Shown here in pieces: positions 20,158 through 64,000 of a stretch of 64,000 nt of DNA. The DNA is taken from contig NZ_JBBIAB010000003.1 of assembly GCF_039634785.1 (NCBI RefSeq), positions 13,724 to 77,723 on the forward strand, written 5' to 3'. Each line of letters begins with the position of its first letter. The first letter of the stretch is position 1. The DNA comes from Tistrella mobilis. Lineage in GTDB: Bacteria; Pseudomonadota; Alphaproteobacteria; Tistrellales; Tistrellaceae. The notes beneath the pieces were generated by a model. The model had not been told where the DNA came from. It saw only the letters and a list, made by a program, of their open reading frames with translations, and ran no database searches. The translations under genes were made by a program, and so were the position numbers.

Positions 20158-20484
20158 CGGCTGGACCTCCTTGCTGTGACCTGCATGCGACGGCCGCGAA
20201 CGAAACCGATACGTTGACGACCGCCCGACCCTCGCGCCCGACGGATTCCGGGCGACGTGGCCTTTGAACTCTAACATAATCGCTCGCCGGCCGGATGAAA
20301 GAGGGCAAAATTCCCGTCTCCGGAAATGAGGCCCGTCTCCGGAAAGGGAGCCCTGCCCCTTCGGCATTCCAGGCTGCATTCAGCTGCGGATCATTCCGTC
20401 CGCCCGCCAGCATCACCGCACCAATACCGGCCAGCGCGGCAATCCTGCCGCGCCACGGCCGGCACGACCGGGACCGAAAGCCAG

Positions 20485-21615: not shown

Positions 21616-21636
21616 TCGCGGAGAGGACAGAGCCTT

Positions 21637-24600: not shown

Positions 24601-24735
24601 GGCACCTTCTTCACCCTGTTCGTGATCCCGACGGTCTATACCTATATCAGCCGCCGCGACATGAAGCCGATCGTCGAGGCGCCGAGCGATGCCGAACTCG
24701 CCGCCGAGGGAGCCCAGGGCCATGTTGCCCACTGA
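21637..24735 (+). CDS. RND efflux transporter permease (HAE1 family, MdtB/MdtC/AcrB-like), pump 1
   Basis: 1032 aa with 12 TM helices and two large periplasmic loops. N-terminus MKLSDICIQRPVFATVLSFVVLLLGL is typical of HAE1 pumps. Confidence 0.9.
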   Translation: MKLSDICIQRPVFATVLSFVVLLLGLVAYDRLSVREYPNIDPPVVNVETTYPGASAQIMESQITQILEDSLSGIEGIDYITSISRQQQSQITLRFKLDRDPSDAAADVRDRVARVRGQLPDEIDEPIIEKVEADAQPIIYLAFSSDRHSPLELSDYADRYVKDQLQILTGVSQVMIFGERRYSMRIALDPIRVAGYGLTIQEIEAALAAQNVEIPAGTIESAEREFTVLSETDLQRPEQFNAIVLAERDGHQIHLSDVGQAFIGAEAEDSAARFNGKPAVAMGVVKQATANPLDVSAAVRARIPEIIENLPQGMQVDVAYDSSVFIQESINNVYDTIIEAVVLVILIIFLFLRSLRATLVPLVTIPVSLIGAFFMMYLLGFTINTLTLLSLVLAIGLVVDDAIVMLENIFRHIEAGMSPMRAAFKGSREIAFAVIAMTITLAAVYMPIAFQTGTTGRLFTEFALTLAGAVLISGFVALTLTPMMCGVLLKHQSSHGLFYRVIEGFLNGLTRGYRATLKGALKVRPLILLIGLAVASGSFFLLKALPEELAPYEDQGFLIGFIIGPEGATLDYTERYARGLEGIYAGIPEAETYFVVAGFPLKSQGISFVKLKDWADRERSASEIAASVMPSMFGGLPGVMAFPIPPAPLGQEIGQKPVQFVVQSSLPYEQLGALVDKIVARAMQNPGLQNVETDLKLNRPQLTVSVDRAKAADLGIGVDVIGRTLETALGGRQVTRFKLHGDQYDVIIRLDDRYRATPSDLSAIYVRSATGEMVQLSNLVKVTETVAPQGLNHFNQLRSVTVDANLAPGYALGDALTFLDQVAREELGGQATTDLSGQSREFRDSASSLVMTFVLALGFIFLVLAAQFESWRDPFIIMLTVPLSITGGLLALYLSGGTFNIYSQVGVVTLIGLITKHGILIVEFSNQIRREGLSRSDAVVEAAVQRLRPILMTTGAMVLGTVPLALATGAGAESRQDIGWVIVGGLLVGTFFTLFVIPTVYTYISRRDMKPIVEAPSDAELAAEGAQGHVAH

Positions 24736-28066: not shown

Positions 28067-30403
28067 ATGCGCCTGTCGCGCTGGCTGATCCTGACCTATG
28101 CGCTGATCATTCTGGTGGGGCTGTCCGCCGCCCTGCCCAACCTGCTCACCCCCGGCCAGAGGGCGGCACTGCCCGGCTGGCTGCCGTCGAAACCCGTCAC
28201 CCTCGGCCTCGATCTCCGCGGCGGGTCGCAGCTGGTGCTGGAGGTCGACGCCTCCGCCCTGCTCAACGATCCCAGGCTGACCGAGGCGGAGCGCGCCGAA
28301 CGGCTGAATGCCGCCCTGACCCAGAGCCTCGAAATCGTCCGCACGCGCATCGACCAGATCGGCGTCGCCGAACCCTCGGTCCAGCGGGTCGGCGACGACC
28401 GGATCATGGTCCAGCTGCCCGGCGTGCAGGATCCGGCCCGGATCCGCACCCTGCTCGGCAGCACGGCGAAGCTCGGCTTCCATATGCTGGCCGATCCGCC
28501 GGCCCCCGGAGCCCGCCCGGCACCCGGCACCCTGCTGCTGCCCATGCAGGACGAACGCGACGGCAGCGGCGCGCCGCGAAAGCTGGCGGTTCAGGCACAG
28601 CCCGCGCTCGACGGCGACCGGCTGGCCGATGCCCATGCCGGCTTCGATCCACGCAGTGGCGAGCCGGTGGTCAATTTCCGCTTCGACGAGGCCGGCGCCC
28701 GGCGCTTCGCCGAGATCACGACGCAGAATGTCGGCCGCCCCTTCGCCATCGTGCTCGACGGTCGGATCCTGAGCGCCCCGGTGATCCGCGAGCCGATCAC
28801 CGGCGGCGCGGGCCAGATCAGCGGCCGGTTCTCGGTGGCCGAGGCCGGCGTGCTTTCGGCCCTGCTCCGTGCCGGCGCCCTGCCGGCCCCGCTCAGGGTG
28901 ATCGAGGAACGCAGCGTCGGCCCCGATCTGGGCGGAGACGCGATCCGTGCCGGCATCATTGCCGGCCTGGCCGGCTTCGCGCTGGTCTGCGGCTTCATGG
29001 TGGTGCTCTATCGCGGCTGGGGGATGATCGCGAACCTGGCCCTGCTGCTCAACGTCGCCCTCACCCTGGGCGCGCTCTCGGCGCTGGGTGCCACCCTCAC
29101 TCTGCCAGGTATCGCCGGCATCATTCTGGGGCTGGGACTTGCGGTCGATGCCAATGTGCTGATCAACGAGCGCATCCGGGAAGAGACCCGCCGCGGCCGC
29201 GCGGCACGGGCCGCACTCGATGCCGGGTTCAAGCGGGCCTATGCGACCATCGTCGATTCCAACGTCACCAGCCTGATCGCCACCCTGCTGCTGTTCCAGT
29301 TCGGCAGCGGCCCGGTGCGCGGCTTCGCCGTCACCATGGCGCTCGGCATCCTGATCTCGATGTTCACCGCGGTCACCGTGGTCAGGATCGTCATGACCCG
29401 GATTCTGGAACGGCGCGGCGCGCTCCGCTCCTCCACGGCCAGGCTGGAGATCGAACCGCTGATCCGGCTGATGCCGAAAGGCGACACCCGGATCCGCTTC
29501 ATGCGCGCCCGCTTTGCCGGCATTGCGGTCTCGGCCGCGCTGTCGCTCGCCTCGATCGGGCTGTTCGTCTCGCCCGGGCTCAATTACGGCGTCGACTTCA
29601 AGGGCGGCATCCAGATCGAGGCCGCAACCCATGCCGATCCGGGCCGCCTGCGCGACCGGCTGGACGGGCTGGGGTTGGGAGAGATCACCCTCCAGCAGAC
29701 CGGCAGCGACGGTGTCCTGGTCCGGGTGGCGCGTCAGCCGGGCGATGATGCCGCACAGACCATCGCGGTCGAAAGGCTCAAGGCGGCGATCCGGGATGTC
29801 GACCCCGCCGCCGGCATCGAGCGGGTCGATGTGGTGGGGGCCAGGGTCAGCGGCGAACTTGCCACCGCCGGCGTGCTGGCGGTGGTGCTCGCCGGCCTCG
29901 CCATGATGGTCTACATCTGGTGGCGCTTCGAATGGCCCTTTGCGGTGGGGGCCATCGCGACGCTGGTGCTCGACATCACCAAGACGATCGGCTTCTTCGC
30001 CCTTACCGGCATCGACTTCAACCTGACCGCCATCGCCGCCCTGTTGACCCTGATCGGCTATTCGGTCAACGACAAGGTCGTGGTCTACGACCGGATGCGC
30101 GAGAACCTGCGCCTGCATCGCACGCTGTCGCTGCGCGAGATGATCGATCTTTCGATCAATCAGACACTGACCCGCAGCCTCTACACCTCGGCGACCGCCT
30201 TCCTCGCCATGCTGCCGCTGGCGATCTGGGGCGGCAGCGCGGTGGAGAGTTTCGCGGTCCCGATGGTGTTCGGCATCGTGGTCGCGGCCTCGTCCTCGGT
30301 GTTCATCGCCGCCCCCATCCTGCTGTTCCTGGGAGAGCCGATGCGCCGGCGCAGCCGGTCGGCCCTGACGGCGGAGGGGTCAGCGACCGCAACCACCGGG
30401 TGA
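28067..30403 (+). CDS. secDF: Fused SecD/SecF protein-export membrane protein (SecDF)
   Basis: SecD part: GLDLRGGSQLVLEVD and the periplasmic head. SecF part: IRFMRARFAGIAVSAALSLASIGLF...GVDFKGGIQIEA. 778 aa in a single ORF. Confidence 0.85.
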   Translation: MRLSRWLILTYALIILVGLSAALPNLLTPGQRAALPGWLPSKPVTLGLDLRGGSQLVLEVDASALLNDPRLTEAERAERLNAALTQSLEIVRTRIDQIGVAEPSVQRVGDDRIMVQLPGVQDPARIRTLLGSTAKLGFHMLADPPAPGARPAPGTLLLPMQDERDGSGAPRKLAVQAQPALDGDRLADAHAGFDPRSGEPVVNFRFDEAGARRFAEITTQNVGRPFAIVLDGRILSAPVIREPITGGAGQISGRFSVAEAGVLSALLRAGALPAPLRVIEERSVGPDLGGDAIRAGIIAGLAGFALVCGFMVVLYRGWGMIANLALLLNVALTLGALSALGATLTLPGIAGIILGLGLAVDANVLINERIREETRRGRAARAALDAGFKRAYATIVDSNVTSLIATLLLFQFGSGPVRGFAVTMALGILISMFTAVTVVRIVMTRILERRGALRSSTARLEIEPLIRLMPKGDTRIRFMRARFAGIAVSAALSLASIGLFVSPGLNYGVDFKGGIQIEAATHADPGRLRDRLDGLGLGEITLQQTGSDGVLVRVARQPGDDAAQTIAVERLKAAIRDVDPAAGIERVDVVGARVSGELATAGVLAVVLAGLAMMVYIWWRFEWPFAVGAIATLVLDITKTIGFFALTGIDFNLTAIAALLTLIGYSVNDKVVVYDRMRENLRLHRTLSLREMIDLSINQTLTRSLYTSATAFLAMLPLAIWGGSAVESFAVPMVFGIVVAASSSVFIAAPILLFLGEPMRRRSRSALTAEGSATATTG

Positions 30404-31274: not shown

Positions 31275-32726
31275 TCAGCCCCCCGCGCCCGCGACCCTGG
31301 CGCCGCCCACGGGCGGGGCGGTTTCAGGAACGACGCCATAGGGCCCGAACCCCGCCGGCCCATAGGGCGTGGTCACGGCACCCGTGCCGCCGCCGATGCC
31401 CAGCCACCGGCTCAGCTGTTCCAGGGTCACCGGCTCACCCGGCAGGAAGCCCTGGCGCACGGCGGTGGGCGCCGGCTGGGGCGAGGCAGGCTGCACCGGG
31501 GCCGCCGGCGCCGTCGGATGCTCGGGCGTGGTGGTTTCCGGCACCATGGCCCGGCCGACCGAGGCGGTGCCGGCAGGCGCGCCTTCGACGACCGCCTCGC
31601 TCTCGCCACTATCCATGCGCGGCCCTGATTTCGGCCCGCCGGCCGGCGCGGGCCGAGAGCCCGTCTGGTTGAGGGGCTCCGACCCCACCGGCCGGATCTC
31701 GGCCGTGCCCGCATCCACGTCGCCCAGGATGACCGGCTGGCCGGCACCGCCATCGGCAGCCTGGGGCCCGCCCGTAGCGCCGGACGTCGTCGCCGCGCGG
31801 GCGCCATTGCTGTCGATGCCACCCAGGATCAGCGGCATGCCGCCCGAATCCTTGTTGCCGATCACCACCACCTTGGCATTGGTCGACTGGGCCAGCTGCA
31901 CCGAGGCATTGATGCCGAGCCAGGTGAGATAATCCGGAATCTCCGAGGCACCGACCCGGTCGAACAGCATGCGGATACCTTCACCTTCGATCCGCTTGCG
32001 TTCGGCTTCCTTCTGCTCGGTCGCCAGGCGGTAATCATATTCCAGCTGACGCTGATACTGCTCGACCTTGCGTTCGATCGCCTGGGCGACGCGCTCGGGC
32101 AGATGGATCGCCTTGATCAGCACGTCCTGCAGCTCGATCAGGTCGAAACCGGGCTGGCTGTAATAGTTGCCGCGCAGGAAATTCGCCTTCACGCCCTCGT
32201 AGATCTCGTTCTGCACGATGGTACGCAGGTTCGAGTAAAAATCCTCGGCGGTGTACTGCGAGATGCGCGCCCGGGCGACCGATCCGACCTCGGGAATGAT
32301 GATCTTGTGCAGGTATTCCGGGCCGACATTCTTGTGCAGGATACCGACATACTGCTCGTTCACCCGGTAGCGGAACGAGATGGTGGTGGCGACCGTCAGG
32401 CCGTCTGCGGTGATCGCATCATAGGTCTGGGTCACGGTCTGGAAGCGGACGTCATAGATCTCCAGCCGGTCCCAGGGCCAGATCACCTGCAACCCTTCAC
32501 CCGTCGGGCTGTCGACATCGGTCCCGCTGAAGCGGTGCCAGACGACGCCGGCATGACCGGCCGGCACGGTGATGAACATCGCCGGCCAGAACAGGATGAT
32601 CAGCGCGCCGGCGATCAGCACCGACAGGGTCAGCGACCAGAGATGGCGGCGCAGCCAGCCGCCGATCCGGCCGAGAGGTCCGGGACGCTCCGGCTCGTCG
32701 GTCATGTCCATATCGGCGACCGTCAT
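31275..32726 (-). CDS. SPFH/Band-7 (prohibitin/HflC-like) domain membrane protein with a long Pro/Gly/Ala-rich C-terminal tail
   Basis: N-terminal TM helix (LWSLTLSVLIAGALIILFW). SPFH core (GHAGVVWHRFSGT...YEGVKANFL). Coiled-coil EQYQRQLEYDYRLATEQKEAERKR. Start ATG 32724-32726 forms an ATGA overlap with the upstream ABC exporter stop and has GGGAGG 7 nt upstream. Confidence 0.8.
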   Translation of the reverse strand: MTVADMDMTDEPERPGPLGRIGGWLRRHLWSLTLSVLIAGALIILFWPAMFITVPAGHAGVVWHRFSGTDVDSPTGEGLQVIWPWDRLEIYDVRFQTVTQTYDAITADGLTVATTISFRYRVNEQYVGILHKNVGPEYLHKIIIPEVGSVARARISQYTAEDFYSNLRTIVQNEIYEGVKANFLRGNYYSQPGFDLIELQDVLIKAIHLPERVAQAIERKVEQYQRQLEYDYRLATEQKEAERKRIEGEGIRMLFDRVGASEIPDYLTWLGINASVQLAQSTNAKVVVIGNKDSGGMPLILGGIDSNGARAATTSGATGGPQAADGGAGQPVILGDVDAGTAEIRPVGSEPLNQTGSRPAPAGGPKSGPRMDSGESEAVVEGAPAGTASVGRAMVPETTTPEHPTAPAAPVQPASPQPAPTAVRQGFLPGEPVTLEQLSRWLGIGGGTGAVTTPYGPAGFGPYGVVPETAPPVGGARVAGAGG

Positions 32727-34411
32727 GCCGGATCCTCCCAATCTTCGCCTTCAGTACGGGCTTCGTCTTCAGTACGGGCGTCGCCGTTGTCGACGATCCT
32801 GACCACGCGCCCCTCCTCCATCGCCACCCGACGGTCGGCGACGTCGAAATAGCGGTCGTCATGGGTGATCGCGATCACCGTCTTGCCACGCGCCTTCAGC
32901 ATCGGCAGCAGTTCCCGATAGAATTTGCGCCGGAACTGCGGGTCCTGATCGGCAGCCCATTCGTCGAGCACCAGCACCGGCCGGTCCTCGATCATCGACA
33001 CCATCAGCGCCAGGCGCTTCCGCTGGCCGCTCGACAGGTCGATCGTATCGAACAGGTCGCCCTGAAGCGCCACCTTGCCGCCCATCTCCATCAGCTTCAC
33101 CAGCGCCTCGAATTCGGCCGCATCCGGCGGCTCGATCCCGTAAAGGCGGCGGAACAGATGGTAGTCGGCATAGATCGCCGAGAACAGCGAACGATAGGTT
33201 TCGAACGAACCGCGGGTGACCGGTTTCCCATCCAGCCGGATCATGCCCCTGTCGGCATGATAGAGGCCGAGCAGCAGGCGGATCAGGGTCGACTTGCCCG
33301 AGCCGTTGCCGCCGGTCACGAAGATCAGCTCGCCGGCCCGGATGGTCAGATCCACCGGCCCCACCCCGAATGACACGCCGCCCACCGGCGCATAGGTGAA
33401 GGCCACCCCGTCCAGCCGGATCTCCTCGAACGAGGTCAGGGTCTGGGGCGGGGTCTCGGCCACCTCGGACGCGGCGGCGATCTCGCGCAGCACGCGGTCC
33501 ATGCGCATCAGGTTCTCGGCGGCGGCATTGGCCATCGCCATCATCGGCACGGCCTGGATGACCATGCTGAGCGGGCCGACGATGAACAGGATCGCGGTGG
33601 CGGTGCGGACCACCGCCTCGGGCTCGGTATTGCCGAAGCTCGGCACCACGAAGACCACCACGCCCAGCAGCAGGAAGATCATCGTCTGGCCGAAAACGAA
33701 TTCATTGCCCGACTTCACCTGCATGTCGGCCTTGGCATCGCGCGCCTCGGTGGACAGCCGTGCCATGTCGCGCAGCAGGGCATCGCGGCGCGAGGACGAC
33801 AGCTTCACTTCCTTGAAGCCGTCGAGCACGTCGCGCATGCTCTCGAAAACCTGGTTTTCCTTCATCATCGCAGCCGGATACCGGTTGCGCAGATCGATCA
33901 GCCGCCGGACGACCAGAAACACCGCGATGGCGATGAAACCGGTGCTGAGCCAGAAGGCGGTGCGATCGGTGATGAAGATGTAGATCATCGCCAGCCCGAC
34001 CAGGATCACCGACTGGGCGGCGATCACCAGCAGGTTGGCGGCCTGGGAAATCGTCTGGGTGTCGCGGATGACGCTGGCCAGGATATTGCCGCGCCCCACC
34101 TGTTCCAGGGGCAGCAGATCGGATCGCGAAACCGCGTCGATCAGGCTGCTACGCTGGCGATGGATGATCTCCTCCACCTCGGTGGCGGTGATCTGCATCA
34201 TCCGGCGCTGGCTGAGCACATAGACCGCGACCACGATCGCAAACAGCGCCACCGTCCGCAGGTCGAGCGCATCGTCGTAGAGCCCGGCGGAATTGTTGAT
34301 GATCGCCATCACCAGCGCGTTGCTGACACCGGCGAGCGCGGCGATGAACAGGAGGGTCGCCGGCTTCGCCGTCAGGTCGCGGCGAATAAGCTCGATCAGG
34401 GGCATCGTCAC
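32723..34411 (-). CDS. Fused TMD-NBD ABC exporter of the cyclic-peptide/siderophore exporter type (SyrD/PvdE/YojI-like)
   Basis: N-terminal 6-TM ABC_membrane domain. Walker A GGNGSGKST. Signature LSSGQRKRLAL. Walker B VLVLDE. 562 aa. Confidence 0.85.
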   Translation of the reverse strand: MTMPLIELIRRDLTAKPATLLFIAALAGVSNALVMAIINNSAGLYDDALDLRTVALFAIVVAVYVLSQRRMMQITATEVEEIIHRQRSSLIDAVSRSDLLPLEQVGRGNILASVIRDTQTISQAANLLVIAAQSVILVGLAMIYIFITDRTAFWLSTGFIAIAVFLVVRRLIDLRNRYPAAMMKENQVFESMRDVLDGFKEVKLSSSRRDALLRDMARLSTEARDAKADMQVKSGNEFVFGQTMIFLLLGVVVFVVPSFGNTEPEAVVRTATAILFIVGPLSMVIQAVPMMAMANAAAENLMRMDRVLREIAAASEVAETPPQTLTSFEEIRLDGVAFTYAPVGGVSFGVGPVDLTIRAGELIFVTGGNGSGKSTLIRLLLGLYHADRGMIRLDGKPVTRGSFETYRSLFSAIYADYHLFRRLYGIEPPDAAEFEALVKLMEMGGKVALQGDLFDTIDLSSGQRKRLALMVSMIEDRPVLVLDEWAADQDPQFRRKFYRELLPMLKARGKTVIAITHDDRYFDVADRRVAMEEGRVVRIVDNGDARTEDEARTEGEDWEDPA

Positions 34412-35735: not shown

Positions 35736-38700
35736 TCATGATGCCGTCCGATCCTTCAATCTCTGCTGAAGCAGTGCATCGGGCGGTGGCGGTTCCACCA
35801 GCACCTTGCGCCGCTTCCGCGAAATCAGAGTATAAACCGCAGGTATGACGAACAGCGACACGAACGTACCAAAGGTCATGCCGCCGACGATCACCCAGCC
35901 CAGTTCGCGGCGCCCGCCGGCGCCGGCGCCGGTGGCGATGGCCAGCGGCACAGCGCCCAGCACGGTGGCGATCGTGGTCATGATGATCGGCCGGAGCCGG
36001 GTTTCGGCCGCCTCAATCACCGCCTCGGTCCGGTCGCGGCCGGCATCGCGCAGCTGATTGGCGAATTCGGTGATCAGGATGCCGTGCTTGGCGATCAGGC
36101 CGATCAGGGTCACGAAGCCGATGAAGCTGTAGATGTTCAGCCCGCCGCCGGTCTCGCTCAGGGTGAAGATCGCACCGGCCACCGCCAGCGGCGCGATGGC
36201 CAGCACGATCACCGGGTCGCGGAAGCTTTCGAACTGGGCGCTCAGCATGAAGAAGATGAACACCAGCGCCAGCAGCAGCACCAGACCGGCCGAGCCGCTT
36301 TCCTGCGAAGCCTTGGCGGCGTCGCCGGCCAGCACCGGCTTCATGCCCGGCTGCAGCACCTCGCCCATCAGCGGCATCAGCGCCTGGAAGGCTTCGGCCA
36401 GTTGATGACCGGGGGCGACCGCTGCCGTAAAGGTGGCCGAGCGCAGGCCGTCGGTGTGCTCCAGCGTGTCGGCGCCGACGGTGCGGCGCAGCTCCACGAA
36501 ATCGCGCAGCGGCAGCGGATCGACGCTCTTGCCGCGGATTTCCAGCGTGTTGATCGTCTCCACCTGGCCCCGCCATTCGGGCGGCAGGTCGATGATCACC
36601 TTGTAGAGTTCGCCGCGGTTGGTGAAGGTGGAAACCGGGTTGCCGCCCAGCGCCGCCTGCAGCGTGTCGCCCAGCGCGGTTGCCGTCACCCCCTGCTCGC
36701 CCGCGCCGTCGCGGTCCAGCGTCACCTCCAGCTGCGGCCGGTCCAGCTCCAGGCTGGAGGCCGGGTCCGCGATCGACGGCAGCTCGCGGGCCTTCGTCAC
36801 CAGCCGGTCCATGGTCCGGGCCAGATCGTCATAGCTGCCGGTGGTGGTGATCATCAGCTGGATCGGCCGCGAACTGCCGCCGCCACCCAGCGGGCTGACC
36901 TGCAGAACGTCGATCCGCAGGCCCTGGATCGCCGCCAGCAGCGGCTTCAGCGCATCACCGATTTCGGTGGCGCTGCGGCTGCGTTCCCCCCAGGGCTTCA
37001 GCAGCAGATAGGCATTGGCGGCGGACGGCTTGGGGCTGCCGAGCAGGGTGAGGACGCCGGTCGCCTCGGGCACGGTTTTCAGCACCGCCTCCACCCGGGC
37101 GATCTGATCCTGAAGATGATCGAGGGTCGAGGTGCCGCGCGCCTCGATATCGAACAGGATATAGCCCTGATCCTCGACCGGCGCGAAGGCGAAGTTCAGC
37201 CGGCTGGTCGCCGAGAAGCCGACATAGAGGGCGGCGATCACCCCCAGCAGCACCAGCCAGCGCCGGTGCAGCAGCCAGCCCAGCAGCCGGGCATAGCCGC
37301 GGGCCAGCGCCTCGGTCGCCCGTTCCACCCTGCGGGCATAGCCGTGTTCGGCCCGGGCACCGATCAGCCGCGCGCACATCATCGGCGACAGCGTGCGGGC
37401 GATGAAGCCCGAAATCAGCACGGCCCCCGCCAGAGTGAAGGCGAATTCCCGGAACAGCATGCCGATCTGGCCGCCGACCAGGCCGATGGGCGCGAAGACC
37501 GCCGCCAGGGTCAACGTGGTCGCGATCACCGCAAAGCCGATCTCGCGGCTGCCCAGGAAGGAGGCGGTGAAGGCATCCAGCCCGTCATCGACATGGCGCT
37601 GGACGTTTTCGATCTCGACGATCGCATCGTCGACCACCAGGCCGATCGCCAGCACCACCGCCATCAGGGTCAGGGTGTTGATGCTGAAATCCATCGCCGC
37701 CATCAGCCCCAGCGTGCCCAAGAGCGACAGCGGGATGGTGACCAGCGCGATGGCGCTGGAACGCAGCGAGCCCAGGAAGATGACCACCACACCCAGCACC
37801 AGGGCGACGGCGATCGCGATCGTCTCGAACACCTCGTGCACCGAGGCGTCGATATAGATCGTGCTGTCGAAGGCGATCTCGAGCCGGAAACCGCCGGGCA
37901 GGCCGGCCTGCAGGGCCGGCAGCTCGGCCTTCACCAGTTTCGCGATGTCGAGTGGATTGGCGGTGCTCTGCGGCACGATGCCGACGGCCACCACATCGCG
38001 GCCGTTGAAGCGGATGGCGTTGTCCAGGCTTTCCGGCCCCACCTCCGCCCGGCCCAGATCGGAAATGCGGACCAGATAGCCCGGCTCGGCACGCACCACC
38101 AGCCGGTCGAATTCGGCCGCGGTCGACAGCGCCCCTTCCACCACCACATCGGTGCGGTCGGTGCGGGTACGGATTTCGCCGCCGGGCACGTCGGCATTCT
38201 GGGCGACGATCGCCGCCCGGACATCGCCAATGGTGATGCCATAGGACGCAAGGCGGATCGGGTCGAGCACGATGCGGATGGCATAGCGCCGCTCGCCCAG
38301 CAGCGTCGCCTGGGCCACGCCGTCCAGCGCCGCGATCCGCGGCAGCAGCAGGCGGTTGGCGGTGTCGCTGATCTCCAGCGCATCATGGTTGTCGCTCGCC
38401 ACCGTCAGGAACATGATCGGCTGGGCGTCGAGCGATTGCTGCGCCACCACCGGCGCCCGCGCCGCCTGGGGCAGCGTGTCGGTCAGCGGCGCCACCTTGT
38501 TGCGCACCTCGTTGGCGAGCAGCAGCCCGTCCAGCCCCAGGCGGAACTGGATCTGGACCAGCGACATGCCGGCGCGGCTTTGAGAGGTGATCTGCTGCAC
38601 GCCCGAAATGCCCGAGACCGCCTGTTCGATCGGCGTGGTCAGCTGGCGTTCGACCTGTTCGGCCGCAGCCCCGGGATAGATGGTGGTGATGGTGACATAG

Positions 38701-38828
38701 GGGAAATCCATCGCCGGCAGCTGGCGGATGGACAGATGGTTGAGCGCGTAAAGCCCCAGCAGCGCCAGGATCAGGTTGATCACGATCGCGAAGACCGGCC
38801 GGCGGATGCAGAGGTCGGAGATCAGCAT
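35736..38828 (-). CDS. RND efflux transporter permease (HAE1 family), pump 2, paralogous to the pump at 21637-24735
   Basis: 1030 aa. N-terminus MLISDLCIRRPVFAIVINLILALLGL. 12 TM helices with large periplasmic loops. Confidence 0.9.
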   Translation of the reverse strand: MLISDLCIRRPVFAIVINLILALLGLYALNHLSIRQLPAMDFPYVTITTIYPGAAAEQVERQLTTPIEQAVSGISGVQQITSQSRAGMSLVQIQFRLGLDGLLLANEVRNKVAPLTDTLPQAARAPVVAQQSLDAQPIMFLTVASDNHDALEISDTANRLLLPRIAALDGVAQATLLGERRYAIRIVLDPIRLASYGITIGDVRAAIVAQNADVPGGEIRTRTDRTDVVVEGALSTAAEFDRLVVRAEPGYLVRISDLGRAEVGPESLDNAIRFNGRDVVAVGIVPQSTANPLDIAKLVKAELPALQAGLPGGFRLEIAFDSTIYIDASVHEVFETIAIAVALVLGVVVIFLGSLRSSAIALVTIPLSLLGTLGLMAAMDFSINTLTLMAVVLAIGLVVDDAIVEIENVQRHVDDGLDAFTASFLGSREIGFAVIATTLTLAAVFAPIGLVGGQIGMLFREFAFTLAGAVLISGFIARTLSPMMCARLIGARAEHGYARRVERATEALARGYARLLGWLLHRRWLVLLGVIAALYVGFSATSRLNFAFAPVEDQGYILFDIEARGTSTLDHLQDQIARVEAVLKTVPEATGVLTLLGSPKPSAANAYLLLKPWGERSRSATEIGDALKPLLAAIQGLRIDVLQVSPLGGGGSSRPIQLMITTTGSYDDLARTMDRLVTKARELPSIADPASSLELDRPQLEVTLDRDGAGEQGVTATALGDTLQAALGGNPVSTFTNRGELYKVIIDLPPEWRGQVETINTLEIRGKSVDPLPLRDFVELRRTVGADTLEHTDGLRSATFTAAVAPGHQLAEAFQALMPLMGEVLQPGMKPVLAGDAAKASQESGSAGLVLLLALVFIFFMLSAQFESFRDPVIVLAIAPLAVAGAIFTLSETGGGLNIYSFIGFVTLIGLIAKHGILITEFANQLRDAGRDRTEAVIEAAETRLRPIIMTTIATVLGAVPLAIATGAGAGGRRELGWVIVGGMTFGTFVSLFVIPAVYTLISRKRRKVLVEPPPPDALLQQRLKDRTAS

Positions 38829-39961
38829 CAGCCGCCCCCGCCCGCCGGTACCGGATCGATCCGCATGCCGTCCTCGACCTTGAACTGGCCTTCCACGATC
38901 ACCGGCGTACCGGCATCGAGCCCGGTCACGATCTCGACCGTGCCGCCATCGCCATCGGCACCGATGGTCACCGGGCGGCGGACGGCCTTGCCATTGTCGG
39001 CCACATAGACGTAGTCGCCCGAGAGCGACGACATCACCGCCGGCCGCGGCACCAGTACGGCGCCCTCGCGGCTGTCGAGCAGCAGATCGACATTGACGAA
39101 CAGGCCCGGATGGATCGGCCGGCCGCCGATTTCGGCCTGGGTCAGCTCGGCGCGGAGCAGGATGCTGCGGCTGTCGGGTTCGATCGAGGGATCGACCAGC
39201 GTCACCCGCCCCTGGATGGGGTCGGGGCCCAGGCTCTGGGACGAGAGGGTGACCGGCAGGCCGGTCTTCAGCCGGGGCAGAAGTTTTTCCGACACCCGGA
39301 AGGTCACCCGCAGGCGGGAGCGGTCCTCGACCGTCAGCGCCTCTTCACCGGGAGAGAGAAAGCTGCCGACCTCGATCTTGCGGGTGCCGGCGACGCCGTC
39401 GATGGGTGCGCGCAGGGTGAGCAGGTCGAGCTGGGTCTGCTTCACCTCCAGCGCCGCCCGCGAGGCCGCGACCGCCGCCCGCGACTGGTCGATATCGGCG
39501 CGGGATTTGGTGCCCCGGCGGCCCAGTTCTTCGTCGCGCTTCAGGTTCTGGGCGTCCAGCGCCGCGGTCGCCCGGGCGCTTGCAAGCTCGGCCTCGGCCA
39601 CGCGCTGGTCCAGCCGGACCAGGGGCTGGCCCTGCTTCACCGTCTCCCCCTCGCGGAACAGCACCGCGACCACATGGCCGCCGGATTGCGGCGACAGCAC
39701 GATGCGCGCCACCGGTTCCACCGTGCCGAAGGTGATCAGGCGATCATAGGCCGTGCCGTGACCGGCCTTGGCCACGCCCACCTTCATCGCCGGCGCCGCC
39801 GGGGGCTGCTGGGGCGGCGTGGCGGCGGTTCCGGCCACGGCCGGCCCTTTCGTCGCCCCCGGCGCAGGCACGCCAGGCACGAGACCGGCCTGCCACGCCC
39901 AGCCGGCGGCGCCGGCCAAGCCTGCAACGATCACCAGCGTGATCCAGCCTCTCGCCCTCAT
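38828..39961 (-). CDS. RND efflux system periplasmic adaptor (membrane fusion protein), partner of pump 2
   Basis: Start MRARGWITLVIVAGL (ATG 39959-39961) with GGGGAG 4 nt upstream. HlyD-family motifs. Its stop overlaps the pump start by 1 bp (ATGA). Confidence 0.8.
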   Translation of the reverse strand: MRARGWITLVIVAGLAGAAGWAWQAGLVPGVPAPGATKGPAVAGTAATPPQQPPAAPAMKVGVAKAGHGTAYDRLITFGTVEPVARIVLSPQSGGHVVAVLFREGETVKQGQPLVRLDQRVAEAELASARATAALDAQNLKRDEELGRRGTKSRADIDQSRAAVAASRAALEVKQTQLDLLTLRAPIDGVAGTRKIEVGSFLSPGEEALTVEDRSRLRVTFRVSEKLLPRLKTGLPVTLSSQSLGPDPIQGRVTLVDPSIEPDSRSILLRAELTQAEIGGRPIHPGLFVNVDLLLDSREGAVLVPRPAVMSSLSGDYVYVADNGKAVRRPVTIGADGDGGTVEIVTGLDAGTPVIVEGQFKVEDGMRIDPVPAGGGG

Positions 39962-40301
39962 CCCACTCCCCTGCTGCGGCGCAACACACCGCGAACGGTC
40001 ACTGGTCCGGGATGGAGGGTGACACGACATGGCATCACCTGTCTACTGGACCGCAACCAAAAATCCACTTGCACGGGAATATCTCCCGGCCTACCAATGG
40101 GCGCAACTTCATGGGCACCGAAACTGTGGCGGAATGCACCGTGCCGGATCCCATGGTCATCGATAGCAGGATCTGCGGCTGCCTTCACCTCTGCGCCATC
40201 CGGCGATCAACAACCATCGACCGGAACACCCCCTCGCAGGTTGCCGCATCGCCAGAGCCGCGCCTATCATCGCTCGATCACCAGCGGAATGAAGACTGCC
40301 G

Positions 40302-46696
<6,395 letters not shown>

Positions 46697-46700
<4 letters not shown>

Positions 46701-49700
46701 GCACGCTCCCGCCCGATACGCCTGCCGGCCGCAGCCTGCTTGACCGCATGGCCGCCCTCAGCCCCGCCCAACGCGCGGCGCTGAAGCAGCGTCTGGCGGC
46801 CCGCGACGGGGCTCCGGCAGCACCTGCGACGACCGTCGCTGCGGAGACATGGCCCGAGGTCGGCGCACAGGCCCCGCTTTCCCCCGCCCAGGCGCGCTTC
46901 CTGTTCCTGGCCGAAGACGAGGCCGGCGATGCCCAGGCCATGTCGCTGATGCTGCGCATCGACGGGCCGCTCGATGCCGATCGGCTGGCGGCGGCGGTCT
47001 CGGACGTCGTCACCGCCCAGGCGGCGCTGCGCTGCCGGATCCTGAACACCGCCCGGGGCCCGGTGCAGGAGGTGCTGCCCGCCCCCGCACCGGCCGAGGC
47101 ATTGCCGGTCGTCCATGTCTGGCCGGCGGAGGATGCCGACGCCGCGCTGGTTGCGGCGGGCCTCACCCTCGGCCGCGAGGGCTTCGATCTCGCTGCCGGC
47201 CCGCTTGCCCGTTTCCGCCTGTTCCGCTGTGCGCCGGATCTGCACGGGCTGGGTGTGGTGCTGCATCACATCGTGGCCGATGGCTGGTCGGCCGGGCTTT
47301 GCCTCGCCCTGATTCAGGACGCCTATGCCCAGCGGATGGCCGGCCGGCAACCGGCGCCGCCGCCTGCGCGTTCCGCCTTCGACGAAGCCCGGCGTCTGGC
47401 CGATCTGGCAGGCGGGGAAGCGCATCGCCGCAGGCTAGACCAATGGGTCGACCGTCTGGCCGGTGCACCGCGGCGGCTGATGCTGGATGGCGGGCCGGGA
47501 GAGCCGGGCCCCGCCCGGCACCTGCCCTTCCGGATCAGCCCCGCGCGGACGGAAGCCCTGGCCGGCCTCAGCCGGCGTGTGCCCGGCGCCACGGTCTTCA
47601 CCGCCCTGCTCGCCGCCTGGGGCGCGGTGCTCGGCCGGTTCACCGATCAGGGCGACACCACGATCGCGGTCGCGGTCGCCAACCGCCCCGATCCGGCGCT
47701 CGACCGCACGATCGGCGAATTCGCCGATCTGGTGGTGCTGCGGCTCGCCACCGCCGACGATCCGGGCGTGGATACCCTGCTCACCCGCACCCGCGATGCG
47801 GTGATCGACGCCCAGGCCCATGACGGCATCACCCTCGCCCAGATCATGGAAGCGATCGACCGCCGCCATGGCGCCGGGGCCCGGCCGGCGATCGATGCCG
47901 CCTTCAGCTTCCTGAACGTGCCGGCACCTGCGGCCGACGCCCACGGCCTGCGCTTCCGGCCGCTGCCGCTGCCGGCCGACCGGCTGGATTTCGCGCTCTA
48001 TCTGACGGCCCATGAAGATCCCGCCGGCGGGCTGGCCGGATCGCTGGGCTTCCGGCCCGACATGGTACCGCCGGCGCTCGCCGCCGCACTCGCCGACGCT
48101 TTCGGGCTGGTCGTCGACGCCATCAGCCTGGACGGCAGCCTGCCGGTCTCGCGCCTGGCCCTGACGACCGAACCCGCCGGCGACGACCTGCCGGTGGTGA
48201 CCGGCCCCGATGGCCGGCTGCATCTGGCGCCCGTGGGTCTGCCGGGCCGGCTGCTGCCCGGCCCCGACCGCGCGCGGCGGTTGTCCGACGGCCGGCTGCG
48301 GCTGCTGCCCGGCATCGACGGCGCACTGCGCCGCGGCACCGCACGGGTTCATCCGGCCGCGGTGGAAGCGGCGCTGCGCCGCCTGCCCGGCGTGCTCGAT
48401 GCGGCGGTCTGGACCCGCATCGGCACCGATCACGAGGCCCGTCTGGTCGCAGCGGTCGCGACCCGCATTCCGTCGATCGGGCCTGCGGGTTTCGCGGCCG
48501 GGCTTGTGGACGCGCTGCCGCCGCTGCTCCGCCCGGATGCCGTCCTGCCGGTTCACGCCATCCCGCGCGATGCCGAGGGCCGGCCCGACCGCGCCGCCCT
48601 CGACCGGCTGGCCGTGCCCGCGGCCCCGCACCGGGCGGATCGGGCGGCCCTGGTCTGGGTGGAGGCGCCGGCCCCTGCCCTGCAGCACCTGCCGCTCGAC
48701 AGCCTGCCCGGCACCGCCAGAGCGGCGGATGACGCGGACTGGCTGGTGCCGGGCGACCCGCCGCCGCCGGCACTGGCCGATGGCGGACCGCTGGTTCTGC
48801 CCGCCGATGCCCCGCGCACGCTGGATGCCGCCCTGATCGCAACCGCCGCCGGCCATCCGGGGCGCGGCATTCTGCATGACGACGGCCGCGGATCGCCGCA
48901 GCTTCAGGATTATGCCGGGCTGCTGGCGGCGGCCCGCCGCACGCTCGGCCGGCTTCAGGCGGCAGGGCTGCGCCCGGGCGACCGGGCGGTGCTGGTCTTC
49001 GCCGATCTCTCCCGCCATATCGAGGCACTCTGGGCCTGCATCCTGGGCGGCCTCCGGCCGGTGACGGTCGCCGTGCCCCATGCCGCCGGCGATGCCGTCG
49101 CGGCCAAGCTTTCGGGCACCCATGCGCATCTGGGCGCCCCGCCGGTGCTGACCGATGCCGACACCCGCGATCATCTGACCCGGATCCTGCCCCAGGCCCG
49201 GATCCTGGTCGCCGCCCCCGCCGCCGACACGCCCGAGGGCATTCTCCATCCGGCCGCCCCGGAGGATGTCGCCTTCATCCAGCTCTCCTCGGGCTCGACC
49301 GGTGTGCCCAAATGCATCCAGGTCACCCATGGCGGGGTGATCGCCCATGTCTTCGGCCAGGTCGACGCCTGGGGGCACGGCCCCGACGACGTGTCGATGA
49401 ACTGGCTGCCCTTCGACCATGTCGTGCCGATGCTGACCTGCCATCTGAAGGACACGGTGCTCGGCCGCCAGCAGATCCAGGCCCCCACCGCTGCGGTGCT
49501 GGACCGGCCGCTGCTCTGGCTCGACCTGATCGAACGCCACCGGGTGACGCTGGCCTGGGCACCCAATTTCGCCTTTCGCCTGGTGGCCGACGCCTTGTCG
49601 CGTGAGACGGGGCGGCGGCGCGACCTGTCTTCGATCCGCTGGTTCATCAATGCGGGCGAACAGGTGACGGCACCGGTGGTCGCCGATGCGCTGGCGGCCA

Positions 49701-52101
49701 TGGTGCCGCATGGCCTGCGCCCCGGTGCCGTGCGCAATGAATTCGGCATGGCCGAACTCTGCACGGTGATGACCGGCGGCATCGACTTCACCGCAGACGG
49801 CGCCTGCCGCCATGTCACCGCCGGATCGCTGACCGGCCGGCTGCGCGCCGCCACGGCCCCCGGCCCCGGCACGGTCAGCTTCGTCGATGCCGGCCGGCCG
49901 ATCCCCGGTGTCGCGATCCGCATCGCCGATCCCGACGGCGCCACCTGCCCGGAAGGCGTGATCGGCCGGCTTCAGGCGCGGGGTGCCGTCACCACCCCCG
50001 GCTATATCGACAACGCCGCCGCCAATGAAGCGGCCTTCGCCGATGCCGGCTGGTTCGACACCGGCGATCTGGGCTTCATCGCCGATGGCCGCCTGGTGCT
50101 GACCGGCCGGCTGAAAGAGATGATCGTCGTCCGCGGCGCCAATCACTATGCCCATGACGTCGAAGACGAGGCCGGCCGTGCGGCAGGGGTCGCCGCCACT
50201 TTCGTCGCCGCCACCGCCGTCGACCGCCCCGATCTCGGCACCGAAGGGATCGCCGTTTTCTACGTGCCCGAGGCTTGTCTGGCCGAGATCGGTGCCGCCG
50301 ATGATGCCGGCCCGCGCCGCGCCGAAATCGCCGAGATCACCGCCCGTCTTGCCCGCCGGCTCGGCATTGCGCCCTCGGTGGTGGTGCCGCTGGACCGGGC
50401 CGATTTCCCCAAGACCACCAGCGGCAAGATCCAGCGCACCGCCCTGCGCCGCCGGCTGGAAGCGGGCGATTTCGATGCCCGACTTGCCACCCTCGGCCTC
50501 GCCCCGGGCCGCGATCGGGGGCCGGGACTGCCCGACTGGTTCCTTGAGCCGGGGGATGCCCCCGCCCCGCCGCTTGCCGGCGCCCCGCGGCTTGGGCTGA
50601 TCGAAGACCGCCTGCCGCGTGGCATGGCGCTGGCCGATGCCATCGACCGCCGGCGCGCGCTGCTGGCCCGGCTGGCCGGCCAGGATGCCGAGCTGGTGCA
50701 GGATGCCGAACTGGTCACCGTGACACCCGCCGGCGACGTCACCGCCGCCGCGGTCGATGCCTTCACCGCCGCCGCGGCCGAGGACCTGCCCGGCCTGCAT
50801 CTGCGCCGGATCATCGTGGCCGACGGTACCCCCGAAGCGGTGGTCACCGACGAGATCGCCCGCGGCACCCTGCCGGTGGTCCACCTTACGGCCGGCGGCC
50901 GCACCCGGCCGGTGCTGCGCCCGGCGCGGCTCGCCACCGACATCCCTGCCCAGGGTATCGCCCCGGGGCAGTCCTGGCTGGTCACCGGCGGCCATGGCGG
51001 GCTCGGCCGGGCGCTGATCCGCCACCTGCTCGATCGGGGCGTGGCCTCCATTACCGTCATCGGCCGGCGCATGGCAACGATGGATGACCCGCGGGTGCAG
51101 GCCCTGTCGCTCGATCTTGCCGCCGCCGATGCCGGCGCGCGGCTTGCGGCCCTCGGCCGGTTCGACGGCATCGCCCATCTGGCCGGGCTCTATCGCGAGC
51201 GCCCGGCGGCCGAGGAAGACGGCAGGGCGGTGGCCGAGCTGGCGGCGCCCAAGACCGGCATGCTGCCGGCGCTTGCCCGCCTGCTGCGGGATGACGGGCT
51301 GCTGATCGCCTTCTCCTCCGTCGTGGCCCATCTGCCGGCGGCCGGCACCGCGGCCTATGCCGCCGCCAATGCGGCCCTCGAAGCCGAAGCCGCTGCGCTG
51401 CGCCGGCCCGGCGGGCCACGCCTCGTCACCATCGCCTGGACGAATTGGGAAGGGCCCGGCATGGGGGCGGCCGTCACCGGTGCCGCCGGCCTCGCCCGCG
51501 GCCGCGGCCTGCTGCCCATCCCGCCCGCCGACGGTCTGGCCAGCCTGGATGTCGTGCTGGCCGCCGGCCTCACCCGCGCGGTGATCGGCGCCGATCGCCG
51601 CCATCCGATGATCGCGGCCCGCTGCATCGATCCGGAACTGTCCCCCGCCCGCGCCCGCGCGGTGCTGCTGGTGGCAGGTGAAACGGCTGCCCCGGCGACG
51701 CTCCGCCGGGCCGAAGACGTCTTCGGCACCCCTGCCGGGCCCGGGCTCCGCCATGTCGATCATCTGCCGGAAAGCGACGACGCCCTTGCGGCCCTTGCCG
51801 GCGGCGGCGACACCCTTGCGGCCGTCGCCCCCCGCACGCCGACCGAAACCGCCTTGGCCGCGATCTGGTCGGAACTGCTGCCGGCACCGGTCGCCGGCAT
51901 CGATGCCGATTTCTTCGCCGCCGGCGGCCACAGCCTGCTCGCCGCCCGGATCGTCACCCGGATCAACGACCATTTCGGCCTGCACCTCACCCCGGCCGCG
52001 CTGTTCGATGCCCCGACCATCCGCGCGCTGGCGGCGCATGTCGACGGCATTGCGGCGCCGGGCCCGGCCGGAGCCGACGAGGATTTCGAGGAGGGCGCCC
52101 T

Positions 52102-52105
<4 letters not shown>
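46697..52105 (+). CDS. Hybrid NRPS module: C - (vestigial A-domain C-terminal fragment) - acyl-AMP-ligase (FAAL/AL-type) adenylation domain - ketoreductase - T
   Basis: ATGA overlap with the upstream NRPS. C domain HHIVADGWS (47263-47289). ANL domain with FIQLSSGSTGVPKCIQVTHGGV, NWLPFDHVVPM, EFGMAEL, GRLKEMIVVRGANHYAHDVE, PKTTSGKIQR. KR Rossmann WLVTGGHGGLG and SSVVAHLPAAGTAAYAAANAAL. T domain FFAAGGHSLLAARI. Confidence 0.9.

Positions 52106-64000
<11,895 letters not shown>

What the first reader, a model, noticed from the sequence alone, without database searches (positions are those of the whole stretch)
48180..48620. Vestigial A-domain C-terminal subdomain fossil between the C domain and the acyl-AMP-ligase domain
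Right after the C domain lies a stretch of about 145 aa. It reads LPVVTGPDGRLHLAPVGLPGRLLPG...GRLRLLPGIDGALRRGTARVHPAAVEAALRRLPGVLDAAVWT...ARLVAAVATRIP...LPPLLRPDAVLPVHAIPRDAEGRPDRAALDRL.

This is co-linear with motifs A6 to A10 of an NRPS adenylation domain, but every catalytic signature is degraded.
- There is no YRTGD.
- GRxDxQVKxRGxRIE is replaced by GIDGALRRGTARVHP.
- The A10 Lys is lost, with PRDAEGRPDRAAL in place of NGKLDRKAL.
- There is no A1-A5 core in front of it.

It looks like the remains of an ancestral amino-acid A domain that was functionally replaced by the downstream acyl-AMP-ligase domain, a trace of module evolution.
Basis: inference. Interest (0 to 1): 0.6.

Follow-up and report, generated by a model that had tools for sequence, protein, structure and literature searches.

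The report
Dead adenylation-domain remnant in DidB
The stretch is a real, catalytically dead leftover of an amino-acid-activating domain inside the didemnin lactate-loading module of Tistrella, a feature already described for this class of keto-acid modules, so it is correct but not new.

Summary
Window 48185-48640 (aa 497-648 of the 1802-aa protein encoded at 46697-52105, +) is collinear with motifs A6-A10 of canonical NRPS adenylation domains. An HMM of 29 canonical A6-A10 regions scores it at 60 bits (E 1e-20); 1000 shuffles reach at most 9.3 bits. Profile-profile probability is 98-99%. AlphaFold models it confidently, and the fold matches solved A domains.

The gene is the orthologue of DidB from the Tistrella didemnin cluster (95% nt identity to pTM3). 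Its layout is C, remnant, keto-acid ligase (KAL), KR, T. It loads pyruvate and reduces it to lactate.

Three qualifications apply.
- The loss is ancient and family-wide, not specific to the did cluster.
- The remnant is under purifying selection (dN/dS about 0.15, like the catalytic domains), so it probably has a structural role and is not neutral debris.
- It is distinct from a second Asub-derived unit that the KAL-KR pair splits in two.

Interest is low to moderate.

The parts
46697..52105 (+). didB orthologue (1802 aa): C, Ax remnant, KAL, KR, split pseudo-Asub, T. This is the lactate (pyruvate) module of the didemnin assembly line.
   Evidence: ORF, translation, Pfam domains. It is 95.4% nt identical to T. 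mobilis pTM3 681309-686699. Codon-position GC is 0.81/0.56/0.85.
46868..48172 (+). Condensation domain (aa 58-492), with HHIVADG at aa 190-196.
   Evidence: Pfam PF00668, 147 bits; motif position.
48185..48640 (+). Ax remnant, which is the finding: a degenerate canonical A-domain C-terminal part, A6 (partial) to A10, aa 497-648.
48230..48268 (+). A6 remnant PVGLPGRL joined directly to the A7 remnant LPGPD. About 35 aa between A6 and A7 are deleted.
   Evidence: Alignment A5, hhalign, positions.
48308..48367 (+). A8 remnant PGIDGALRRGTARVHPAAVE. GR, Q and K are lost, and RIE has become RVH.
   Evidence: hmmsearch alignment, positions.
48560..48601 (+). A10 remnant IPRDAEGRPDRAAL, in which the catalytic Lys is replaced by Arg.
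48644..48664 (+). Strand AALVWVE (aa 650-656), proposed to be the N-terminal piece of the split pseudo-Asub. The helix that precedes it in all non-Tistrella relatives aligned is deleted here.
   Evidence: Alignment A5. The strand is disordered in the remnant-only model but confident in the aa 513-1712 model. Family homology to Asub positions 88-108 is shown.
48842..50452 (+). Keto-acid-activating ligase (KAL/Ak): core plus its own intact C-terminal subdomain. Key residues are A3 SSGSTGVPK, V909, G1017-M1018 and the A10 Lys1244.
   Evidence: Best solved relative is StsA 6ULW/6ULX. Motifs. The StsA key residues are taken from PMC7923214.
50975..51451 (+). Ketoreductase domain, with TGGHGGLG at aa 1430 and Tyr1554.
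   Evidence: Pfam KR, 71 bits; motifs.
51656..51796 (+). Post-KR piece of the split pseudo-Asub (aa 1654-1700). It is homologous to the second half of a canonical Asub, from the LVAYVV strand to an A10-like LPESDDALAAL.
   Evidence: hhalign probability 95.5%, E 1.3e-8. The family N piece plus C piece gives 98.7%, E 3e-16.
51851..52042 (+). Thiolation (carrier) domain, with GGHS and Ser1746.
   Evidence: Pfam PP-binding, 62 bits; motif.

Best explanation
The stretch is the truncated, catalytically dead remnant ('Ax') of a canonical amino-acid adenylation domain. It sits between the C domain and the keto-acid ligase of DidB, the didemnin module that activates pyruvate, loads it on the carrier domain and reduces it to lactate.

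Substrate activation is done entirely by the downstream KAL domain, which has its own intact core and C-terminal subdomain. The remnant cannot adenylate, because it has no A1-A5 and its A7, A8 and A10 motifs are destroyed.

It most likely persists as a folded, inert structural domain (inferred). In this reading it spaces and orients the C domain relative to the KAL-KR unit. It also leads into the short strand (aa 650-656) that, together with about 50-70 residues after the KR, forms the split pseudo-Asub known from StsA.

The loss of function is ancient and common to the whole KAL-KR module family. Lineages differ only in how much of Ax has since been deleted, and DidB is an intermediate stage (A6 to A10, 166 aa between C and KAL).
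For: Shown:
- Homology to canonical A6-A10.
- Higher similarity to canonical Asub than the KAL's own Asub has: 60 against 26 bits.
- Motif loss.
- Confident Asub-like predicted fold: pLDDT 80-96, with the order hairpins, helix, strand, strand, helix, strand.
- Foldseek top hits are solved A domains such as PltF, CytC1, Thr1, PheA, LgrA and EntF, at E about 1e-10.
- The module as a whole matches StsA 6ULW, the A-KR-pseudoAsub structure, at E 1e-72 and E 2e-120 by sequence.
- KAL signatures are present: V909, and Gly1017-Met1018.
- Across the 70 of 133 sampled KAL-KR modules that have an upstream C domain, the C-to-KAL interval ranges continuously from 38 to 583 aa. Nearly all 133 have a canonical-type Asub match just before the KAL.
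- dN/dS in the remnant is 0.15-0.17 (51 synonymous against 21 non-synonymous differences), equal to the C, KAL and KR domains.

Literature:
- PMC13643306 describes C-Ax-KAL-KR-T modules and four-domain modules that 'retain partial Ax-like regions' with A6-A10 motifs, and proposes a structural role.
- PMC10510592 section 2.2.5 and PMC7923214 describe the split pseudo-Asub of StsA.
- PMC9964501 assigns Gln-Gln-Pyr to didAB.
Against: - The structural role is an inference. No coordinates could be inspected, so contacts of the remnant with the C, KAL or KR domains were not seen.
- Against the more distant orthologue (L004) the remnant is the most diverged part of the protein (51% aa differences against 28% in the KAL). 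Constraint is therefore weaker than on the catalytic core.
- Some relatives manage with only 38-90 aa in this position, so the A6-A8 part kept in DidB is dispensable in principle.
- The Pfam match on its own is below the gathering threshold.
Confidence: 0.78

Rival explanations
1. The stretch is a neutral relic. It is a leftover of a deleted A domain that has no present role, is kept only as an arbitrary linker, and is free to decay.
For: All catalytic motifs are gone. The length of this interval varies widely among relatives, down to 38 aa. It is the most diverged segment against the distant Tistrella orthologue.
Against: dN/dS is 0.15-0.17 between close Tistrella strains, as low as in the catalytic domains, while the adjacent linker aa 661-715 shows 0.35-0.42. 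The part from the A8 helix to A10 (about 90 aa) is retained in almost every KAL-KR module, including N-terminal loading modules. The predicted fold is confident.
Confidence: 0.12
2. The stretch is itself the N-terminal half of the split pseudo-Asub described for StsA, not a separate Ax remnant.
For: It lies just upstream of the KAL, where StsA contributes about 30 N-terminal residues to the pseudo-Asub (PMC10510592, PMC7923214).
Against: The stretch holds a complete Asub from A8 to A10 and folds on its own. A different short piece after it is what joins collinearly with the post-KR piece to give one Asub. In relatives that piece is a helix plus a strand; in DidB only the strand at aa 650-656 remains. 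The junction falls at canonical HMM positions 88-108 plus 111-195, with probability 98.7% and E 3e-16. The StsA alignment starts only at DidB aa 662, and StsA is not among the 60 best-scoring chains listed for the Ax profile.
Confidence: 0.07
3. The resemblance is a compositional coincidence in an Ala/Arg/Pro/Leu-rich, high-GC protein.
For: The region is strongly biased in composition. A word-seeded database search with the stretch alone returned nothing at E <= 0.001.
Against: Composition-preserving shuffles reach at most 9.3 bits against 67.1 for the real sequence. The match is collinear over more than 120 residues. Pairwise tblastn hits to neighbouring true A domains reach E 6e-10. Homologous positions in relatives pass Pfam's gathering threshold at 42 and 28 bits.
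Confidence: 0.01

Closest known systems
[quoted passage not shown]
   Same: The position is the same, between C and the embedded keto-acid ligase. The origin is a canonical A domain, catalytic motifs are lost, and four-domain modules retain A6-A10 motifs that antiSMASH and Pfam do not call. A structural role is proposed. My survey reproduces the continuum of reduction the authors describe.
   Different: DidB and Tistrella are not named in the held text. DidB keeps only a partial A6 plus A7-A10, with an internal A6-A7 deletion. Together with its Tistrella orthologues, it lacks the helix that in other members follows Ax and is said to complete the pseudo-Asub.
Split pseudo-Asub domain of StsA (PDB 6ULW; Alonzo et al. 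2020, as summarised in PMC10510592 and PMC7923214)
   Same: The module type is the same (KAL-KR-T), and StsA is the best structural and sequence match for the DidB module. DidB has the post-KR piece and the strand of the N-terminal piece.
   Different: The finding's stretch is not that element. It is an additional, complete Asub-like unit upstream of it. StsA aligns only from DidB aa 662 onward.
Canonical NRPS adenylation domain C-terminal subdomain (Pfam AMP-binding_C, PF13193; e.g. PheA 1AMU, LgrA)
   Same: The sequence is collinear from A6 to A10, and the predicted fold and secondary-structure order are the same.
   Different: There is no Acore. The A7 and A8 motifs and the A10 Lys are lost. 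The score is below the Pfam gathering threshold. It cannot be catalytic.
Interrupted A domains, with tailoring domains inserted between A8 and A9 (own knowledge)
   Same: The second Asub unit of the module is interrupted by KAL-KR between its first and second strands, which is the classical A8/A9 insertion site.
   Different: What is inserted here is a whole adenylating enzyme plus a KR, and the host A domain's core is not the active one.

Membership tests
Keto-acid-activating depsipeptide NRPS module (StsA/CesA/CrpD-M2 type, C-KAL-KR-T) | The adenylating domain is closest to characterised keto-acid A domains. | tested here: met
   The best PDB sequence hit is 6ULW/6ULX StsA, at E 2e-120 and 1.5e-100. 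The Foldseek best hit is 6ULW at E 1e-72.
Keto-acid-activating depsipeptide NRPS module (StsA/CesA/CrpD-M2 type, C-KAL-KR-T) | A hydrophobic residue replaces the amino-group-binding Asp235 (StsA Ile306), and the Gly-Met motif is present (StsA Gly414-Met415). | tested here: met
   In the StsA alignment, DidB has V909 in DHV and G1017-M1018 in FGMAE. These positions are invariant in alignments A3 and A4. The key residues are taken from PMC7923214.
Keto-acid-activating depsipeptide NRPS module (StsA/CesA/CrpD-M2 type, C-KAL-KR-T) | A KR domain lies between the ligase and the carrier domain. | tested here: met
   Pfam KR at aa 1427-1585 and PP-binding at aa 1719-1782. TGGHGGLG and Tyr1554 are present.
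Keto-acid-activating depsipeptide NRPS module (StsA/CesA/CrpD-M2 type, C-KAL-KR-T) | A split pseudo-Asub: about 30 residues before the ligase plus about 70 residues after the KR. | tested here: inconclusive
   The post-KR piece is present and homologous to the second half of an Asub. Of the N-terminal piece only the strand at aa 650-656 is present, and the helix is deleted in Tistrella.
Keto-acid-activating depsipeptide NRPS module (StsA/CesA/CrpD-M2 type, C-KAL-KR-T) | It activates an alpha-keto acid that is then reduced to a hydroxy acid. | not testable with these tools
   Assigned from the product structure (lactate in didemnin B) and from PMC9964501 (Gln-Gln-Pyr for didAB).
Ax / partial Ax-like region of keto-acid modules (PMC13643306) | It lies between the C domain and the KAL domain. 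| tested here: met
   The C domain ends at aa 492, the remnant spans aa 497-648, and the KAL starts at about aa 661-716.
Ax / partial Ax-like region of keto-acid modules (PMC13643306) | It is homologous to canonical NRPS A domains and retains recognisable A6-A10 positions. | tested here: met
   It aligns with the Ax regions of 31 non-Tistrella relatives, and an HMM built from them scores it at 81 bits.
Ax / partial Ax-like region of keto-acid modules (PMC13643306) | Catalytic motifs are degenerate. | tested here: met
   A1-A5 are absent. A7, A8 and the A10 Lys are lost.
Functional NRPS adenylation domain | An Acore with A1-A5 is present, including the A3 P-loop. | tested here: not met
   No sequence is available between the end of the C domain (aa 492) and the A6 remnant (aa 512). 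Pfam AMP-binding matches only the KAL at aa 716-1103.
Functional NRPS adenylation domain | The A10 catalytic Lys and the A8 hinge motif are intact, and AMP-binding_C scores above the Pfam gathering threshold. | tested here: not met
   The A10 Lys is Arg, and A8 reads PGIDGALRRGTARVH. PF13193 scores 20.7 bits against a threshold of 24.5.

The most novel reading that the evidence does not exclude
Every KAL-KR depsipeptide module, DidB included, carries two Asub-derived units. One is the complete Asub of a dead Ax domain. The other is a second Asub that KAL-KR splits exactly at the classical A8/A9 insertion site.

If so, the ancestral architecture was not a single A domain that received an insert. 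It was a complete C-A fused to an already interrupted, core-less A-type unit.

The didemnin cluster preserves two stages of the later decay: DidF with about 490 aa of Ax and DidB with about 150 aa. In Tistrella DidB the pseudo-Asub has further lost its helix, and the neighbouring Ax remnant possibly compensates.
Probability: 0.3. Interest if true: 0.4.

Novelty: new member of a known kind. Interest (0 to 1): 0.27.

Why it matters
It shows that DidB, conventionally drawn as C-A-KR-T, actually contains an unannotated folded domain of about 150 aa between C and the ligase. That matters in three practical ways.
- Domain boundaries for engineering the didemnin or plitidepsin assembly line. Module or domain swaps that cut at the apparent 'C-A linker' would cut through a folded domain.
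- Automated annotation. antiSMASH and Pfam miss the domain.
- Reconstructing how keto-acid modules evolved.

It does not reveal a new kind of system. The phenomenon was described for StsA-type and Dol15D/CrpD-type modules.

Tried and rejected
- A word-seeded homology search with the stretch alone found nothing at E <= 0.001, because the candidate list was saturated by low-complexity words. I switched to the full-length protein and to a profile.
- Alonzo et al. 2020 and Xu et al. 2012 are not held. Their content is cited only through papers that summarise them. No supplementary files of the PNAS 2026 paper are held, so I could not check whether DidB is in its homologue list.
- A bootstrapped NJ tree timed out. 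I replaced it with identity and nearest-neighbour statistics. Every Ax sequence has another Ax sequence as its nearest neighbour. However, DidB's mean identity to Ax (0.30) and to canonical Asubs (0.31) is the same, so monophyly of the Ax remnants is not established.
- A first attempt to extract the N-terminal piece of the pseudo-Asub from alignment A3 failed because the columns were misaligned. It was redone from alignment A5.
- Model coordinates are not exposed, so inter-domain contacts could not be examined.
- Rejected readings: low-complexity coincidence, a functional A domain, and a coding region on the minus strand. The long antisense ORFs show the GC pattern of shadow ORFs.
Full report
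**What is at the coordinates.** The finding lies in a + strand ORF, 46697-52105, encoding 1802 aa. Pfam finds Condensation (aa 58-492), AMP-binding (716-1103), KR (1427-1585) and PP-binding (1719-1782). It also finds a sub-threshold, full-length AMP-binding_C match at aa 556-628: 20.7 bits against a gathering score of 24.5, E 8e-4. The + frame has the codon-position GC pattern of a real gene (0.81/0.56/0.85). The long antisense ORFs have the pattern of shadow ORFs.

**Identity of the locus.** The gene is 95.4% identical in DNA to T. mobilis KA081020-065 megaplasmid pTM3, positions 681309-686699. The upstream ORF 40302-46700 is a bimodular NRPS, and a very large NRPS ORF follows on the + strand. 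This is the didemnin (did) cluster, and the gene is the DidB orthologue. DidA makes the acyl-polyglutamine (PMC10811503), and didAB install Gln-Gln-Pyr (PMC9964501). DidB is therefore the module that loads pyruvate and reduces it to the lactate of didemnin B.

**Check of the observation.** The similarity to A6-A10 is real and far above chance.
- An HMM of 29 canonical NRPS A6-A10 regions hits aa 518-648 at 60 bits (E 1.3e-20). The stretch scores 67.1 bits, while 1000 composition-preserving shuffles reach at most 9.3.
- hhalign gives 98.4% (E 5e-15) for the single sequence and 99.4% (E 6e-22) for a family alignment.
- tblastn with the stretch finds the genuine A domains of DidC (window 54721-55107; 37.6% identity over 141 aa, E 6e-10) and DidA (E 3e-7).
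- A profile of the stretch and its counterparts in relatives retrieves canonical NRPS A domains from the PDB, matched over their C-terminal parts. Examples are LgrA at 1e-73 and PheA 1AMU residues 347-524 at 3.5e-35.

There is also an internal deletion between A6 and A7, which many relatives share.

**The downstream ligase.** It is not a generic fatty-acyl-AMP ligase. The best solved relative of the protein is StsA (6ULW/6ULX), the keto-acid-selecting A-KR-pseudoAsub module (E 2e-120). An AlphaFold model of aa 513-1712 (mean pLDDT 82.5) matches 6ULW best (E 1e-72). DidB has Val909 at the position of StsA Ile306, the hydrophobic replacement of Asp235. It has Gly1017-Met1018 at StsA Gly414-Met415 (residues from PMC7923214). 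It also has an intact A3 and its own A10 Lys1244. The functional ligase's own C-terminal subdomain scores only 26 bits against the canonical Asub HMM, against 60 bits for the remnant. The remnant is therefore of the amino-acid A-domain type and is not a duplicate of the ligase.

**Relatives.** I collected 133 KAL-KR modules and measured the interval between the end of the C domain and the start of the KAL, which could be done for the 70 modules that have an upstream C domain. The interval is continuous in length:
- 38 aa in one module.
- 89-140 aa in many modules, which keep only the part from the A8 helix to A10.
- 166 aa in DidB.
- 217-336 aa in an intermediate group.
- 472-583 aa in about 30 modules with a full-length interval.

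Almost every module has a canonical-type Asub match immediately before the KAL. That includes N-terminal loading modules, which begin with it. Counterpart regions in relatives pass Pfam's AMP-binding_C threshold (42 and 28 bits). The syntenic DidB orthologue of Tistrella sp. BH-R2-4 keeps 309 aa. The second keto-acid module of the same cluster, DidF on pTM3, keeps about 490 aa with sub-threshold matches to the A core. In this sample none of the 70 C-to-KAL intervals, even the full-length ones, has an intact A3, A7 or A8 motif by pattern search. The A10 position is mostly Arg, Gln or Glu. Two of 34 rows in alignment A5 keep Lys.

**Not neutral debris.** Between the window and a Tistrella allele with 89% aa identity (L003), the remnant has 51 synonymous and 21 non-synonymous differences, giving dN/dS 0.15. 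The C domain has 0.21, the KAL 0.15 and the KR region 0.15, while the neighbouring linker has 0.40. AlphaFold predicts a confident fold both in context (pLDDT 80-90) and alone (mean pLDDT 81.6, pTM 0.72). The secondary-structure order is hairpins, helix, strand, strand, helix, strand, as in an Asub. Foldseek's top hits are solved adenylation domains (PltF, CytC1, Thr1, PheA, PA1221, LgrA, EntF) at E about 1e-10.

**Relation to the pseudo-Asub.** The remnant is not the split pseudo-Asub of StsA. In relatives, a helix (DxxLxxRWExxL) plus a strand follow the remnant's A10. Joined to the roughly 70-85 residues between the KR and the T domain, these pieces align collinearly with one canonical Asub. 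The N piece covers HMM positions 88-108 and the C piece positions 111-195, with probability 98.7% and E 3e-16. DidB's own post-KR piece gives 95.5%. Each module therefore holds two Asub-derived units, the second of which is interrupted by KAL-KR at the classical A8/A9 site. In the three Tistrella DidB sequences the helix is deleted, and only the strand AALVWVE (aa 650-656) remains. That strand is disordered in the remnant-only model but is a confident strand in the larger model. This fits, but does not prove, its pairing with the post-KR piece.

**Comparison with the literature.** PMC13643306 (PNAS, September 2026) describes C-Ax-KAL-KR-T modules. [quoted passage not shown] It also describes a continuum of reduction and a proposed structural role. 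PMC10510592 and PMC7923214 summarise the StsA pseudo-Asub. The finding is therefore a correct, independent rediscovery of a published phenomenon, in a cluster (did) that the held text of that paper does not mention.

**Verdict.** It is a new member of a known kind, of low-to-moderate interest. The main practical value is for domain boundaries in engineering the didemnin assembly line. There is a small open question about why these modules contain two Asub-derived units.

Noticed in passing
window 48641-48682 and 51641-51830; relatives in alignment A5: Besides the Ax remnant, the module family has a second Asub-derived unit, which KAL-KR splits between its first and second strands. The N piece plus the post-KR piece align collinearly to one canonical Asub (probability 98.7%, E 3e-16). 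This means there are two Asub copies per module.
   Followed up: partly
window 48602-48664 (aa 636-656): The three Tistrella DidB sequences (window, P0002, P0003) lack the 13-aa helix '(I/L)DxxLxxRWExxL' that all 31 other relatives aligned have between the Ax A10 and the strand. Only the strand AALVWVE remains.
   Followed up: partly
L002:1384-6222 (T. mobilis pTM3, DidF; outside the window): The second keto-acid module of the didemnin cluster starts with a degenerate Ax of about 490 aa, with sub-threshold AMP-binding core and AMP-binding_C matches, followed by KAL-KR-T. Its C domain sits at the end of the preceding protein. One cluster therefore holds two stages of Ax decay.
   Followed up: partly
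L004:10001-16153 (Tistrella sp. BH-R2-4): This is a syntenic DidB orthologue with 57% identity. It has a C-to-KAL interval of 309 aa and is followed by an NRPS ORF of more than 5299 aa. It may be a divergent did-like cluster.
   Followed up: no
window 20326-24735 (+), 35736-40030 (-), 32723-34411 (-), 28067-30403 (+), 120-3380 (+): Upstream of didA lie two RND pump plus membrane-fusion-protein pairs, an ABC ATPase, SecDF and a hybrid histidine kinase. The transporters fit the export and prodrug-maturation genes reported to flank did.
   Followed up: no
window 47435-52186 (-), 51760-58752 (-), 58786-63927 (-), 40533-46697 (-): Very long antisense ORFs overlie the NRPS genes. Their codon-position GC (about 0.87/0.55/0.80) marks them as shadow ORFs of high-GC coding DNA, not genes.
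   Followed up: yes
window 46697-46867 (aa 1-57) and L002:1384-1500: DidB and DidF share an N-terminal segment before their first domain: '...L(L/T)(D/A)R(M/L)AAL(S/D)PA(Q/R)RA(A/L)L...'. It looks like an inter-protein docking helix.
   Followed up: no
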